From the NCBI GenBank assembly GCA_913774625.1, contig CAJYHL010000037.1, positions 5,353 through 69,352 on the forward strand: 64,000 nucleotides of DNA, given 5' to 3'. Position numbers and translations under genes: made by a program. Origin of the DNA: an uncultured Acidovorax sp. (lineage in GTDB: Bacteria > Pseudomonadota > Gammaproteobacteria > Burkholderiales > Burkholderiaceae_C). The number at the start of each line of letters is the position of its first letter. Position 1 is the stretch's first letter. Below are positions 4,967-7,301 of this stretch, piece by piece. The notes under the pieces are model-generated. The model did no database searches. It was not told the DNA's origin and was given only the letters and a program-made list of their open reading frames with translations.

Positions 4967-5011
4967 GCGGCAGCCGCCGAGCGAGCGCTAACTTTTCAGC
5001 GCATTTCCGGT

Positions 5012-5052
5012 GCAAGGCGCCTGCCCAACAATTGGGCAGGCGCTTGCTTTTT
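5012..5052 (+). terminator. Intrinsic terminator after maeB
   Basis: GCAAG(G)CGCCTGCCCAA / TTGGGCAGGCGCTTGC stem followed by TTTTT. Confidence 0.8.
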
Positions 5053-5121
5053 GAGCACCTTTCCGTCACACTAACGGCTCGAAATTCCGGGTTAACCCGT
5101 AGTTTCTGAAAGGCGTAGTGG

Positions 5122-5526
5122 ATGTTGAAGGCAGTCGCCCTGCAGGCGTACAAGGCAAGTTGGGCAGGTGTTCTGGGGCTGGCGTTCGCGCTGGCTCCCA
5201 TGGCGGCATCGGCTCGTAACGTACCGGAAATCACCGGGTCTCCCCCCATCGCATTGGCCGAGCTGCCCCCACAAGGGCGTGCGACCTATGCCCTGATCCA
5301 CCAGGGCGGCCCCTTCCCGCACGACAAGGACGGGGTGGTGTTCGGCAACCGCGAACGGTTGCTGCCGGCGAACAAACGGGGCTACTACCGCGAATACACG
5401 GTTGACACGCCGGGCGCACGCACCCGCGGAGCACGGCGCATCGTCTGCGGCGGCCCGCCGCGCACGCCGGACGCCTGCTACTACACCAGCGACCACTACG
5501 CGAGCTTCCGGCTCATCCGGGAATGA
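5122..5526 (+). CDS. Secreted guanyl-specific ribonuclease (barnase/RNase Sa, N1/T1 family)
   Basis: Signal-peptide-like N-terminus; GGPFP..KDGVVFGNRE, YYREYTV, RGARRIV, YYTSDHYASF catalytic motifs. Confidence 0.9.
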   Translation: MLKAVALQAYKASWAGVLGLAFALAPMAASARNVPEITGSPPIALAELPPQGRATYALIHQGGPFPHDKDGVVFGNRERLLPANKRGYYREYTVDTPGARTRGARRIVCGGPPRTPDACYYTSDHYASFRLIRE

Positions 5527-5680
5527 ACACGGGGCAGCCCATGCACCCGGTGCCCGCTCCAGGGCCCCGGACGGGGCCGCCGAGCTGGGCACGACGACAG
5601 CGGAATCTTTTTCCAGCCGACTGACCCCAACCGTCGGGCTGGGCCTATTTTTGTGGACATCTAAAGAAAGAGCAGCGGAG

Positions 5681-6106
5681 ATGGAAACGCCACTTCGTAG
5701 AGATCAGGAAAACCCCTTGCGCGGCGTGCGCGGCAACATCGTGCAGTCGATCCGGGCCTTCCGGGTGCAGGACCTGCAGAGCGCCGCGAGCCAGCTGGGC
5801 CATCACTTCCTGTACGCCAACCTGGCACATGCACAGACCAAGCAGGACGTTCTCGACCTGATCGCTGAGCAATTCACCTTCCCGTCGCACTTCGGCAAGA
5901 ACTTCGACGCACTGTACGACTGCATGACGGACCCGCTGCACAAGTCGGGCCCGCAGCCGGGCTTCATCGTGGTGCTGGAGCAGATTCCCGCCACCGTGAA
6001 GTTCGACAAGGAAGCCCGCGAGCAGCTGCTCGACATCTTCCGCGATGCCGCCGACTACTGGGGCGACCGCAAGATCCCCTTCCGCTGTTTCTATTCTTTT
6101 CTGTAG
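5681..6106 (+). CDS. Barstar-family ribonuclease inhibitor
   Basis: FGKNFDALYDCMTD barstar motif; lies directly downstream of the RNase; GGAG before ATG 5681. Confidence 0.88.
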   Translation: METPLRRDQENPLRGVRGNIVQSIRAFRVQDLQSAASQLGHHFLYANLAHAQTKQDVLDLIAEQFTFPSHFGKNFDALYDCMTDPLHKSGPQPGFIVVLEQIPATVKFDKEAREQLLDIFRDAADYWGDRKIPFRCFYSFL

Positions 6107-6303
6107 CCCGTTCTGCAACCACTGGCCAGGCAGAACGGGCCGGCGAGGCTGGCGACAACGCAGCCCCCGCACCGGCCACGGAGATCGTGATCGAGCCCTC
6201 GTCGGGCGAGAAGATGCCCACCGACAAGCTGGTGGACGTTTCGCCCCTGGCGCTGCGCATGAGCAGCCCGTTCAATGCGGGGTATTGGCTGGCGGCAGCC
6301 TGA
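6097..6303 (+). CDS. Candidate -1 frame C-terminal extension of barstar (alternatively a 29-aa small ORF from ATG 6214)
   Basis: -1 frame open 6097-6303; 36 of the 40 codons in 6181-6300 end in G/C; slippery T_TTT and an 11-bp stem at the junction. Confidence 0.5.
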   Translation, partial: FSVARSATTGQAERAGEAGDNAAPAPATEIVIEPSSGEKMPTDKLVDVSPLALRMSSPFNAGYWLAAA

Positions 6304-6316
6304 TTCGTTCGGTACA

Positions 6317-6455
6317 TCCCCCTGAGGCGCTGCGCGCCTTCCCCCTTCTCTCGAATGGCTGCGCCATTCGGGAAGGGGGACGACACCAGTGGCCTGGCAA
6401 AGCCAGATCCACGGTGTCTCTGGCGGGGCCGCGCCAGCAGCGCAAGGCGCTGGCG
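6317..6455. repeat. Multi-hairpin REP/MITE-like element between convergent genes
   Basis: Stems TCCCCCTTC/GAAGGGGGA with CGAATGGC/GCCATTCG; GACACC..CTGGC-AAA-GCCAG..GGTGTC; CGCCAGC/GCTGGCG. Confidence 0.5.
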
Positions 6456-6506
6456 AGATAAGCATTCAGGCAAAAGTCCGCTCTGGCGCTTATCCAGCAA
6501 GCGCCA

Positions 6507-7301
6507 TCAGCTATCTTTTTGAGAGCAAGCCTGCGCCAGCGCCACGTAGTCGGCCACGGGCACTTCCTCGGCGCGGCGCTGGGTGTCGAAGGTGCCGCCG
6601 AACTGGCGCGCCTCCAGCCAGCGGCCCAGGGTGTGGCGCAGCAGCTTGCGGCGCTGGCTGAAGGCCACCTGCACCAGTTCTTCCAGCAGCCGGGGCGCCA
6701 CGGGCGCAGGGGCGGCGTGCGGCACCATGCGCACGACGGCGCTGTCCACGCGCGGGGGCGGGTCGAAGCTCTCGGGCGGCACGAAGAGCACGTCTTCCAT
6801 GGCGTAGCGCCACTGCAGCATCACCGAGAGGCGGCCGTAGTCGCTGGTGGCGGGCTGCGCCACCATGCGGTCGATGACCTCTTTCTGCAGCATGAAGTGC
6901 TGGTCTTCGATGACGCCCACATGCTCCAGCAGGTGAAAGAGGATGGGCGTGGAGATGTTGTAGGGCAGGTTGCCCACCACTCGGATCCTGGGAGCGCCCA
7001 GCGCTTGCTGCACCTGGGCGAAGTCCACCTTCAGCACGTCGGATTCGATCACGTCGAGCTGGCCGTGCTGGCGCAGGCGCGCGGCCAGATCGCGGTCGAG
7101 CTCGATCACGGTGAGCCGGCCCAGGCGCTCGACCAGGGGCTGGGTGAGCGCTGCGAGGCCCGGCCCGATCTCGACCATGGGCTGGCCGGGGCGCGGGTCG
7201 ATCGCCCGCACGATGGCGTCGATGATGCCGCCGTCGCTGAGAAAGTGCTGGCCGAAGCGCTTGCGCGCGACGTGTTTGCCGTGACTGCCGTTGTTGCTCA
7301 T
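6507..7301 (-). CDS. rsmA: 16S rRNA (A1518/A1519) dimethyltransferase
   Basis: [36 protein letters not shown]; ATGA overlap with surA stop. Confidence 0.95.

What the first reader, a model, noticed from the sequence alone, without database searches (positions are those of the whole stretch)
6089..6303. Candidate programmed -1 frameshift giving barstar a C-terminal ssrA-like degron
Seen: barstar ends TAT TCT TTT CTG TAG. T_TTT (6097-6100) is followed after 5 nt by a perfect 11-bp stem, GCCCGTTCTGC (6106-6116) / GCAGAACGGGC (6130-6140). The -1 frame is open for 68 codons (FSVARSATTGQAERAGEAGDNAAPAPATEIVIEPSSGEKMPTDKLVDVSPLALRMSSPFNAGYWLAAA*), and 36 of its last 40 codons end in G/C, so it looks coding. 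Established: slippery site plus 3' hairpin drives -1 frameshifting, and C-terminal ..YALAA tags send proteins to ClpXP. Inference: two isoforms (141 aa stable, about 207 aa degron-tagged) could tune inhibitor levels and so RNase toxicity. I do not recognise this as a described recoding system. Caveats: the site is not a canonical X_XXY_YYZ heptamer and no upstream SD stimulator is evident.
Basis: partly seen in the sequence, partly recalled or inferred. Interest (0 to 1): 0.78.

Follow-up and report, generated by a model that had tools for sequence, protein, structure and literature searches.

The report
Programmed frameshift extends barstar protein
The gene for the RNase inhibitor barstar in this Acidovorax-like bacterium, and in at least 92 related genera, very probably needs the ribosome to slip back one base to add a conserved tail; related genera encode the same tail in frame, so this looks like a new, unannotated case of programmed frameshifting in a bacterial chromosome.

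Summary
Barstar (5681-6106) ends TAT TCT TTT CTG TAG. An 11-bp hairpin starts 5 nt after TTTT. The -1 frame stays open for 67 more codons.

Comparative data strongly support a real programmed -1 frameshift:
- In Hydrogenophaga, Ramlibacter, Limnohabitans, Polaromonas and other genera, one uninterrupted ORF reads ...CFYSF-SVAR...linker...MPTDKLVDVSPLALRMSSPFNAGYWLAAA. This is exactly the predicted trans-frame junction.
- All 64 broken-frame loci carry the invariant rare-codon run TAT TCT TTT, a TAG stop and the hairpin. In-frame relatives vary freely there and lack the hairpin.
- The stem covaries at 3 of 11 pairs.
- Base 6102 varies T/C/A/G. That is silent in the -1 frame and changes the residue in the 0 frame.
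- Tail dN/dS is 0.05. All 15 linker lengths are multiples of 3.
- The cassette occurs in at least 174 of 401 family genomes.

The degron idea is untested. The tail is predicted disordered and ends W-L-x-A-A in 142 of 156 loci, which only loosely resembles the cell's own tmRNA tag ANDERFALAA.

The main rival is separate initiation at an NTG codon at 6085. That codon is CTG in this genome.

I found no prior description.

The parts
5122..5526 (+). Secreted barnase/RNase Sa-type ribonuclease (134 aa, N-terminal signal-peptide-like segment). It is the partner of barstar.
   Evidence: Pfam PF00545, E 5.3e-25; ORF list.
5681..6106 (+). Barstar 0-frame ORF, giving the short isoform (141 aa, ends ...FRCFYSFL*).
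   Evidence: Pfam PF01337, E 3.5e-29, covering the profile to position 95 of 96. In the AF2 model of an ortholog the last strand of the fold is FRCFYSF.
6094..6100 (+). Shift site U_UCU_UUU. The core is the Z_ZZN tetramer U_UUU at 6097-6100. tRNA-Phe re-pairs perfectly from UUU to UUU. tRNA-Ser can re-pair from UCU to UUC with a G.U pair in the middle position.
   Evidence: TAT TCT TTT is invariant in 64/64 broken-frame loci and the cassette is present in 174 genomes. In-frame relatives use TAT 33/90, TCT 19/90 and TTT 23/90. All three are rare codons in this genome. The tetramer class is described in PMC4066793.
6104..6106 (+). 0-frame stop TAG. It overlaps the -1 frame codons GTA and GCC, and its G is the first base of the stem.
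   Evidence: GTAG is invariant in all cassettes. In-frame relatives use GTG 51, GTC 19, GTA 10 and GTT 10.
6106..6140 (+). Stimulatory hairpin: 11-bp stem, 13-nt loop, 5 nt 3' of the shift codon.
   Evidence: On 48 distinct cassettes, 99.4% of cells are paired, 3 of 11 pairs change on both sides, and 0 of 500 shuffles reach the observed values. The deep clade shows further compensations. The 35-nt MFE has a median of -20.2 in PRF loci against -9.7 in fused loci.
6124..6150 (+). Tentative pseudoknot stem 2: loop bases 6124-6127 (GGCC) pairing with 6147-6150 (GGCU).
   Evidence: Across 51 distinct main-clade cassettes there are three invariant pairs plus one variable pair (A-U 27, G-C 7, G-U 6, mismatch 11). 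The deep clade has GGGUC/GGCCC in a shifted register. This is weak evidence and an inference only.
6100..6213 (+). -1 frame linker (SVARSATTGQAERAGEAGDNAAPAPATEIVIEPSSGEK). It is variable and Ala/Glu/Pro-rich, and its first part is encoded by the hairpin.
   Evidence: The -1 ORF is continuous in 64/64 loci, with 15 linker lengths that are all multiples of 3. dN/dS is 0.35. Base 6102 varies T/C/A/G, which is synonymous Ser in the -1 frame but gives Leu/Pro/Gln/Arg in the 0 frame.
6214..6303 (+). Conserved C-terminal tail MPTDKLVDVSPLALRMSSPFNAGYWLAAA plus TGA. Together with the linker it completes the long isoform (140 + 67 = 207 aa).
   Evidence: dN/dS is 0.052 in this frame against 2.1 and 2.6 in the other two. 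The tail is colinear with the C-termini of in-frame orthologs. 606 database proteins carry it, nearly all with PF01337. Nucleotide conservation collapses right after the stop. The tail is predicted disordered.
6083..6087 (+). Arg codon CGC, whose third base together with the TG of the next codon gives the -1 frame codon CTG (6085-6087). This is the position of the rival start codon or of an auxiliary element.
   Evidence: At this position PRF loci have GTG 35, CTG 18, ATG 9, TTG 1 and GGT 1. Fused loci have CTG 66, TTG 18, GTG 5, ATG 2 and GGT 1.

Best explanation
This is a conserved programmed -1 ribosomal frameshift at the very end of the barstar gene.

Most ribosomes read TCT TTT CTG and stop at TAG 6104-6106. 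They make a 141-aa canonical barstar. A fraction of ribosomes are held up by the 11-bp hairpin that starts 5 nt downstream. Those ribosomes slip one base back while tRNA-Phe sits on UUU 6098-6100 and re-pairs with UUU 6097-6099. tRNA-Ser on UCU can re-pair with UUC. They then read TCT GTA GCC ... in the -1 frame to TGA 6301-6303. The product is a 207-aa barstar with a flexible linker and a conserved C-terminal peptide (...DVSPLALRMSSPFNAGYWLAAA).

Shown by comparison: the long product is colinear with single-ORF orthologs, and the site, the stem and the tail are each under selection.

Inferred:
- Slippage by the ribosome is the mechanism.
- Efficiency is probably low, around a few per cent at most, judging from E. 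coli tetramer data.
- The tail is a short linear motif read together with the free C-terminus, possibly a ClpXP-type degron or another partner-binding peptide.
- The cassette is ancestral in the family and has been replaced several times by a +1-nt in-frame fusion.
For: 1. In-frame orthologs. In 90+ loci (Hydrogenophaga, Ramlibacter, Limnohabitans, Rhodoferax, Polaromonas, Malikia and others) one ORF reads ...FRCFYSF-(S/A)VAR-linker-MPTDKLVDVSPLALRMSSPFNAGYWLAAA. That junction is identical to the predicted trans-frame junction CFYSF|SVAR.
2. Signals go with the broken frame. 63 of 63 scored broken-frame loci have TATTCTTTT, against 2 of 92 in-frame loci. 63 of 63 have a hairpin of -16 kcal/mol or stronger, against 6 of 92. 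Those in-frame exceptions include L032 (five Ts with the hairpin) and L033 (an N in the T run).
3. Breadth. The cassette is present once per genome in 174 of 401 family genomes and 92 of 201 genera. The deep clade is not captured by that pattern, so the true count is higher.
4. The constraint switches frame at the site. Base 6088 varies T/C, which is silent in the 0 frame. Base 6102 varies T/C/A/G, which is silent only in the -1 frame.
5. Stem covariation, plus extra compensatory pairs in the deep clade.
6. Reading frame of the extension. The -1 ORF is uninterrupted in 64 of 64 loci. There are 16 extension lengths, and every linker length is a multiple of 3. Tail dN/dS is 0.052, the same as the barstar domain (0.057).
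7. Internal starts are not universal. Five loci lack any Met before the RMSSPF core, and L142 also lacks the NTG codon.
8. U_UUU with a 3' stimulator is an experimentally validated -1 motif class (PMC4066793).
9. RNA-type contigs span 6088-6337 without an indel in the T run.
Against: - There is no direct protein, Ribo-seq or reporter evidence, so the efficiency is unknown.
- The site is not a canonical X_XXY_YYZ heptamer. In E. coli, U_UUU tetramers give only 0.26-5.6% even with a strong pseudoknot.
- This genome has no SD-like stimulator upstream of the site.
- In 44 of 64 broken-frame loci the -1 frame has GTG or ATG four codons before the slip site. That is 70% purine-ending Arg codons here, against 27% at four other Arg sites of the same genes. 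This hints at an alternative or additional way into the -1 frame.
- The tree gives only 4 well-supported independent contrasts between the two states. The association of hairpin and heptamer with the broken frame therefore cannot reach formal significance (p 0.25).
- The RNA evidence comes from assembled contigs of a run whose RNA label is only guessed, and contigs hide rare variants.
Confidence: 0.85

Rival explanations
1. Split gene with separate initiation or termination-reinitiation. After a 1-nt deletion broke an ancestral long barstar, the linker and tail are translated on their own from the NTG codon at 6085-6087 in the -1 frame. The product would be M-F-L-F-F-S-V-A-R..., about 72 aa. 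Ribosomes that terminate at TAG, blocked by the hairpin, might re-start 19 nt upstream.
For: GTG or ATG occupies that codon in 44 of 64 broken-frame loci but only 7 of 92 in-frame loci. The enrichment exceeds the lineage's general use of purine-ending Arg codons. A conserved stop next to a hairpin would fit a re-initiation device.
Against: - The codon is CTG in this genome and 17 other loci, and GGT in L142. The tail is just as conserved in those loci.
- No Shine-Dalgarno sequence precedes it.
- This model does not explain why the three synonymous sites of U_UCU_UUU are invariant.
- It does not explain why lineages flip between the broken and in-frame states by one T (L151 against L032).
- A free tail would lose its tether to barstar, yet the tail occurs on no other protein.
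Confidence: 0.08
2. Independent small gene starting at ATG 6214 (29 aa) or GTG 6187 (38 aa). Under this reading the hairpin is a terminator or processing site for barstar.
For: An ATG precedes the most conserved part in 59 of 64 loci. The tail is clearly coding.
Against: - The Met is absent in 5 loci (L030, L141, L142, L149, L135).
- GTG 6187 is not conserved.
- All indels upstream of the ATG are in frame, and that region has no stops in 64 of 64 loci.
- No U tract follows the hairpin.
- In-frame orthologs show that the tail is part of barstar.
Confidence: 0.02
3. Transcriptional slippage. RNA polymerase occasionally adds a U in the T4 run, so some mRNAs are in frame and ribosomes never shift.
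For: Adding one T restores the frame exactly, as in L032. Homopolymer runs are the substrate of this known mechanism.
Against: - Four Ts are far shorter than known slippage tracts, which have 7 or more (established knowledge, summarised in PMC5009743).
- This model gives no role to a covarying hairpin placed 5 nt downstream.
- RNA-type contigs show T4 with no insertion, although contigs would miss rare variants.
Confidence: 0.03
4. Decaying remnant. The tail is a dead 3' piece of a once longer gene and is not expressed.
For: It has no start codon of its own and it follows a stop codon.
Against: Tail dN/dS is 0.05, alongside synonymous divergence of 0.53, across 60 loci from dozens of genera. 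The frame is kept through 15 linker lengths. The cassette is conserved in at least 92 genera.
Confidence: 0.01

Closest known systems
E. coli dnaX (tau/gamma) programmed -1 frameshift
   Same: It is a chromosomal bacterial gene with a slippery run followed after about 5-6 nt by a stable stem-loop. Two isoforms share an N-terminus, and a stop codon lies close to the site.
   Different: dnaX uses the heptamer A_AAA_AAG plus an upstream SD-like stimulator, works at about 50% efficiency, and the shifted product is the short one. Here the core is a U_UUU tetramer, this genome has no SD, and the shifted product is the long one.
IS3/IS1-family transposase OrfAB frameshifting on Z_ZZN tetramers (PMC4066793)
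   Same: U_UU[U/C] tetramers with a 3' hairpin or pseudoknot are used naturally. The fusion protein is made by a minority of ribosomes, and the 0-frame stop lies just after the site.
   Different: Those are mobile elements with two substantial overlapping ORFs. Here a housekeeping-type inhibitor gains a 67-aa disordered tail.
Phage tail assembly chaperone G/GT; cellular cases copA and csoS2
   Same: A fixed-ratio pair of isoforms is made by -1 frameshifting. The extension or truncation changes the protein's partners and leaves the core fold unchanged.
   Different: The protein families and slip sites are unrelated. I found no report of any of these switching repeatedly between frameshift-dependent and in-frame states among close genera, as seen here.
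tmRNA (ssrA) tag / ClpXP C-terminal degron
   Same: The tail is a disordered C-terminal peptide ending in a hydrophobic residue plus Ala-Ala-COOH, with an aromatic residue just upstream. The motif keeps a fixed distance to the free C-terminus (142 of 156 loci).
   Different: The organism's own tag is ANDERFALAA, with Leu at position -3. The tail has W-L-x-A-A, with Leu at -4. The tail has a further 20 conserved residues with no counterpart in ssrA. Some lineages end in TVTA, AAT, AAS, AAP or TTN. Degradation has not been tested.

Membership tests
Programmed -1 ribosomal frameshift cassette | A slippery motif that lets the A-site tRNA (and ideally the P-site tRNA) re-pair in the -1 frame. | tested here: met
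   U_UUU at 6097-6100 allows cognate re-pairing. The P-site shift from UCU to UUC needs a G.U pair. The motif is invariant in 64/64 loci, while the same synonymous sites vary in in-frame relatives. It belongs to the Z_ZZN class of PMC4066793. It is not a canonical X_XXY_YYZ heptamer.
Programmed -1 ribosomal frameshift cassette | A stimulatory RNA structure 5-9 nt 3' of the motif that is conserved as a structure. | tested here: met
   The stem has 11 bp, the spacer is 5 nt, and the loop is always 13 nt. 99.4% of cells are paired, 3 pairs show double changes, and 0 of 500 shuffles reach the observed values. The deep clade shows further compensations.
Programmed -1 ribosomal frameshift cassette | The -1 frame is open from the site and under purifying selection as protein. 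| tested here: met
   The ORF is open in 64/64 loci. All indels are in frame. Tail dN/dS is 0.052, against values above 2 in the other frames.
Programmed -1 ribosomal frameshift cassette | The trans-frame product corresponds to a real protein, shown by orthologs encoded without a frameshift. | tested here: met
   More than 90 in-frame orthologs carry the identical junction FYSF-SVAR. 606 database proteins have barstar plus the tail.
Programmed -1 ribosomal frameshift cassette | The trans-frame polypeptide is observed, and its yield depends on the site and the structure. | not testable with these tools
   This needs a western blot or MS (junction peptide CFYSFSVAR), Ribo-seq or reporter mutants.
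ssrA-like ClpXP degron | A C-terminal L-A-A-COOH-type ending on an unstructured tail. | tested here: inconclusive
   The ending is W-L-x-A-A-COOH in 142 of 156 loci and the tail is predicted disordered. However, Leu sits one position further from the end than in the cell's own tag ANDERFALAA, and 14 loci end differently.
ssrA-like ClpXP degron | ClpXP-dependent (or other AAA+ protease-dependent) turnover conferred by the tail. | not testable with these tools
   This needs half-life measurements with and without the tail, and with AA changed to DD, in clpX, clpP or lon mutants.
Barstar (PF01337) | The barstar domain is complete in the 0-frame product. | tested here: met
   The profile is matched over positions 2-95 of 96, E 3.5e-29. 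A barstar from another family of the same order ends at the same place (FYSFE*) with no tail (L157).

The most novel reading that the evidence does not exclude
An ancient, family-wide cellular recoding device sets the fraction of barstar molecules that carry a C-terminal recognition peptide, whether a degron or a partner-binding motif. It has been toggled repeatedly during evolution between 'a few per cent tagged' (U_UUU plus hairpin or possible pseudoknot) and 'all tagged' (in-frame) by gain or loss of a single T. If so, frameshift efficiency would act as an evolvable dial for the stability or targeting of an RNase inhibitor. The family would also provide a natural series of matched frameshift-dependent and in-frame alleles.
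Probability: 0.3. Interest if true: 0.85.

Novelty: new member of a known kind. Interest (0 to 1): 0.74.

Why it matters
- Few chromosomal, non-mobile bacterial genes are known to use -1 frameshifting (dnaX, copA, csoS2, cdd and a handful more). This one lies in a textbook protein family and is present in at least 92 genera.
- Annotation appears to miss it. The database names seen here for tail-bearing proteins are only 'barstar family protein' or 'hypothetical protein'. Other first-stage readers described the -1 frame as a start-less remnant or as non-coding spacer.
- It comes with unusually good natural controls: dozens of in-frame orthologs, a sister pair that differs by one T, and decayed cassettes.
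- It is therefore a ready-made system for studying how a weak tetramer site plus a hairpin is tuned, and why a cell would want two versions of an RNase inhibitor.
- Practically, gene callers should join these two ORFs. The many 'start-less GC3-rich frames' after barstar in Comamonadaceae genomes would then be explained.

Tried and rejected
- Rfam scan of 5000-7000 at permissive E-values found only chance-level hits, so the hairpin is not a known RNA family.
- The terminator scan found no U tract after the hairpin, so it is not a canonical intrinsic terminator.
- NCBIfam gave no model for barstar, the tail or the fusions. Pfam gave nothing for the tail.
- Raw RNA-seq runs X41-X43, filed under a related species label, laid no reads on the region. 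Only assembled contigs of a run guessed to be RNA (X16) covered it, so no quantitative transcript evidence could be obtained.
- The phylogenetically independent-pairs test had only 4 supported contrasts and is underpowered (p 0.25). I report the raw association and do not claim significance.
- The AF2 model of a natural fusion left the tail unstructured (pLDDT below 50), so I did not attempt fold-based function assignment.
- A tail HMM against all ORFs of this genome found no second copy of the motif.
- Literature searches found nothing relevant. I tried barstar with frameshift, programmed ribosomal frameshifting with Acidovorax, the GeneTack paper and its supplements, and the 2016 recoding review.
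- An SD-like stimulator was considered. GGUG is present in many relatives but not in this genome, and its spacing (6-9 nt) is shorter than the 10-14 nt I recall as optimal for -1 stimulation. That spacing rule is from memory and was not checked here.
Full report
**The locus.** The region holds a convergent gene arrangement. A secreted barnase/RNase Sa-type ribonuclease lies at 5122-5526 (PF00545). Barstar lies at 5681-6106 (PF01337, profile covered to position 95 of 96). rsmA/ksgA lies on the opposite strand at 6507-7301. Barstar ends TAT TCT TTT CTG TAG. TTTT is at 6097-6100. A perfect 11-bp stem (6106-6116 / 6130-6140, 13-nt loop) begins 5 nt later. The -1 frame stays open to TGA 6301-6303, and 36 of its last 40 codons end in G/C. 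No ATG, GTG or TTG occurs in that frame before GTG 6187. The hairpin has no U tract after it and matches no Rfam family.

**First comparative pass.** I fetched thirty barstar loci from the same genus and about nine other genera. All thirty keep the -1 frame open from the TTTT to a nearly invariant C-terminus...EKMPTDKLVDVSPLALRMSSPFNAGYWLAAA. Extension lengths are 62-69 codons, so all indels are in frame. Nucleotide conservation collapses immediately after the -1 frame stop. About 10 nt after that stop begins a dispersed REP-like repeat with roughly 29 copies in this genome. The string TTCTATTCTTTTCTGTAG and both stem arms are identical in all 30 loci, while the loop and the neighbouring synonymous sites vary.

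**Decisive result: in-frame orthologs.** I searched 401 genomes of the family with the predicted 207-aa trans-frame product. Many genera have a single uninterrupted ORF that matches residues ~8-207. I retrieved twenty such loci, and 60 more through the search for related loci. They come from Hydrogenophaga, Ramlibacter, Limnohabitans, Rhodoferax, Polaromonas, Malikia and Variovorax-labelled MAGs. They read ...FRCFYSF-(S/A)VAR-linker-MPTDKLVDVSPLALRMSSPFNAGYWLAAA. This is exactly the junction a -1 slip on T_TTT would create in the window (...CFYSF|SVARSA...). The frameshift-type loci with names belong to Acidovorax (delafieldii, radicis, lacteus), Paracidovorax and Giesbergeria. The tail is specific to barstar. 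606 database proteins of 114-362 aa carry it, and nearly all have PF01337. A tail HMM finds no other copy in this genome. A barstar from another family of the same order ends FYSFE* with no tail (L157).

**The recoding signals track the broken frame.**
- Among the 155 loci scored on the tree, 63 of 63 broken-frame loci have TATTCTTTT, against 2 of 92 in-frame loci. Likewise 63 of 63 have a 35-nt MFE of -16 kcal/mol or lower at the hairpin position, against 6 of 92. Medians are -20.2 and -9.7.
- In in-frame genes the same codons vary freely: TAT 33/90, TCT 19/90, TTT 23/90, GTA 10/90.
- In this 68.8% GC genome TAT, TCT, TTT and GTA make up 21.5%, 2.3%, 5.3% and 1.8% of their families.
- A pattern search finds the cassette, allowing up to 3 mismatches, once per genome in 174 of 401 genomes and 92 of 201 genera, with no hits to the reversed control. 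This undercounts, because a deep-branching clade (G032, G025, G030) has the same slip site but a stem with five differences.

**Natural variants are informative.**
- The base after TTTTC (6102) is T, C, A or G. That is always Ser (TCN) in the -1 frame but Leu, Pro, Gln or Arg in the 0 frame. By contrast 6088 (T/C) is silent in the 0 frame and changes Phe/Leu in the -1 frame. The frame under selection therefore switches between 6088 and 6102, that is, at the T run.
- Because the codon between the T run and the stop varies, the slip cannot involve that codon's tRNA.
- GTAG is invariant. A stop immediately after the site is maintained, which argues that the short 141-aa form is also selected.

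**The stem is an RNA structure as well as coding sequence.**
- On 48 distinct cassettes, 99.4% of cells pair. Three of eleven pairs show changes on both sides (U-A to C-G at two positions, G-C to C-G at one). No shuffle out of 500 reaches the observed paired fraction or covariation score. Slid controls pair at only 27-43%.
- The deep clade has GCCCGCUCCCA / UGGGAGCGGGC, which adds further compensated positions. The loop is 13 nt everywhere.
- A possible second stem would make a pseudoknot: loop 6124-6127 with 6147-6150. It has three invariant pairs and one variable pair (A-U 27, G-C 7, G-U 6, mismatch 11). The deep clade has a different complementary pair of sequences in a shifted register. 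I regard this as tentative.

**The extension is translated in the -1 frame.**
- Pooled Nei-Gojobori estimates over 60 frameshift-type loci give tail dN/dS = 0.052 (pS 0.53). The other two frames give 2.1 and 2.6. The last 60 barstar codons give 0.057 and the linker 0.35.
- The -1 ORF is uninterrupted in 64 of 64 loci. There are 16 extension lengths (56-86 codons) and 15 linker nucleotide lengths, all multiples of 3.

**Entry by an internal start is not general.** Five loci have no Met upstream of the RMSSPF core (L030, L141, L142, L149, L135). GTG 6187 is not conserved.

**Evolutionary pattern.**
- On a barstar-domain tree the two states are interleaved: 12-13 changes on the best tree, and at least 4 forced by well-supported branches. 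The alignment has 115 columns and many forks are unresolved.
- The same cassette occurs on both sides of the deepest split.
- In-frame genes close to frameshift-type genes keep remnants of the cassette. L032 is identical to its sister L151 except for five Ts and one G.U pair in the stem. L158 keeps the 3' arm intact while the 5' arm has decayed. L033 has an N inside the T run of the assembly.
- The simplest reading is that the frameshift cassette is old and has been converted to an in-frame gene several times by insertion of one base, after which the signals decay.
- The formal independent-contrast test has too few supported contrasts to be significant (p 0.25). Every informative contrast goes in the expected direction.

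**Mechanism.** U_UUU is one of the Z_ZZN tetramers shown to support -1 frameshifting in E. coli when a 3' stimulator is present. The hierarchy is A_AAG >> U_UUC > U_UUU, with frequencies of 0.26-5.6%, and such tetramers are used naturally in IS elements (PMC4066793). Here the preceding codon also helps. tRNA-Ser on UCU can re-pair with UUC through a G.U pair, which would explain why the T at 6094 (TAT, not TAC) is invariant. The 5-nt spacer and 11-bp stem resemble dnaX. Efficiency cannot be computed. By analogy it is probably low, which would make the long form a minority species in this genome, while in-frame genera make only the long form.

**An unexplained detail and the main rival.**
- The -1 frame codon formed by the third base of the Arg codon plus TG (6085-6087) is GTG or ATG in 44 of 64 frameshift-type loci. 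It is GTG or ATG in only 7 of 92 in-frame loci.
- Purine-ending Arg codons are 70% at this site, against 27% at four other Arg sites of the same genes.
- This could be an SD-like GGUG element, though the A variants do not fit that. It could instead be an alternative start, or a re-start for terminating ribosomes.
- This is the main rival. It cannot be the general mechanism, because the window and 17 other loci have CTG and L142 has GGT, with no relaxation of the tail. It also does not explain the invariant slip site.
- Transcriptional slippage on only four Ts is unlikely, and the contigs of X16 (a run guessed to be RNA) show no insertion. Rare events cannot be excluded.

**What the tail does remains open.**
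- AF2 on a natural fusion, with a 42-sequence alignment, models the barstar fold confidently up to the strand FRCFYSF. Everything after it has pLDDT below 50. That describes a disordered linker plus a linear motif.
- The motif keeps a fixed distance to the free C-terminus: W-L-x-A-A-COOH in 142 of 156 loci. This suggests recognition of the C-terminus, as by ClpX or a PDZ-type reader.
- The cell's own tmRNA tag is ANDERFALAA. It is similar in flavour (aromatic residue, Leu, Ala-Ala) but shifted by one residue. The 20 conserved residues upstream have no counterpart in ssrA.
- The degron hypothesis is reasonable and unproven. I put it at about one in three.

**Prior knowledge.** I found no paper linking barstar to frameshifting. 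The GeneTack survey and its supplements, and the 2016 recoding review, do not mention it. Database names for the in-frame proteins are only 'barstar family protein', 'RNAse (barnase) inhibitor barstar' or 'hypothetical protein'. Other first-stage readers of this scan noted the same start-less frame or hairpin in other genomes. One of them read it as non-coding spacer. The present comparative data explain those notes.

**Verdict.** This is a real and very probably functional programmed -1 frameshift. It is a new member of a known kind, with strong comparative support and no direct experimental support. The proposed degron role is still to be tested.

Noticed in passing
window 6314-6400: A REP-like palindromic repeat (CCCCTGAGGCGCTGCGCGCCTTCCCCCTTCTCTC...GGGAAGGGGGA) starts about 10 nt after the -1 frame stop. 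It has about 29 partial or full copies across this genome and occurs at the same place in several relatives.
   Followed up: partly
window 6083-6087 and the equivalent position in L001-L159: The Arg codon four codons before the slip site ends in a purine in 44/63 frameshift-type loci, against 8/92 in-frame loci. This creates GTG or ATG in the -1 frame, or GGUG. The window itself has CGC, giving CTG. The meaning is unclear: an auxiliary start, an SD-like element, or chance.
   Followed up: partly
L033 (G270:C1, about 1315709-1316305): This public assembly has a single N inside the T run (TCT NTT TCA GTAG), which makes the gene read in frame. It looks as if the frame was 'repaired' during assembly or submission.
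   Followed up: no
L032 (G206:C7) and L151 (G206:C9): One genome bin holds two barstar copies. One has the normal T4 cassette. The other has T5, which is in frame, and its hairpin is weakened by one G.U pair. This could be paralogs, two strains in one bin, or a recent reversion.
   Followed up: partly
L152, L153, L155 versus L154, L156, L158: A deep-branching clade has a divergent tail (...NPNFGMNMPMMSSAFDTAMWLSAA) but the same slip site and a homologous, compensated hairpin. It again contains both frameshift-type and in-frame members.
   Followed up: partly
window 5015-5045: A strong intrinsic terminator (14-bp stem followed by a T-rich tail) lies after the upstream maeB-like gene. The RNase-barstar pair is therefore probably its own transcription unit.
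   Followed up: no
window 6117-6150: The linker residues (G/S)Q and EA are conserved only in frameshift-type loci. They coincide with complementary GCC/GGC triplets that could form a short pseudoknot stem.
   Followed up: partly
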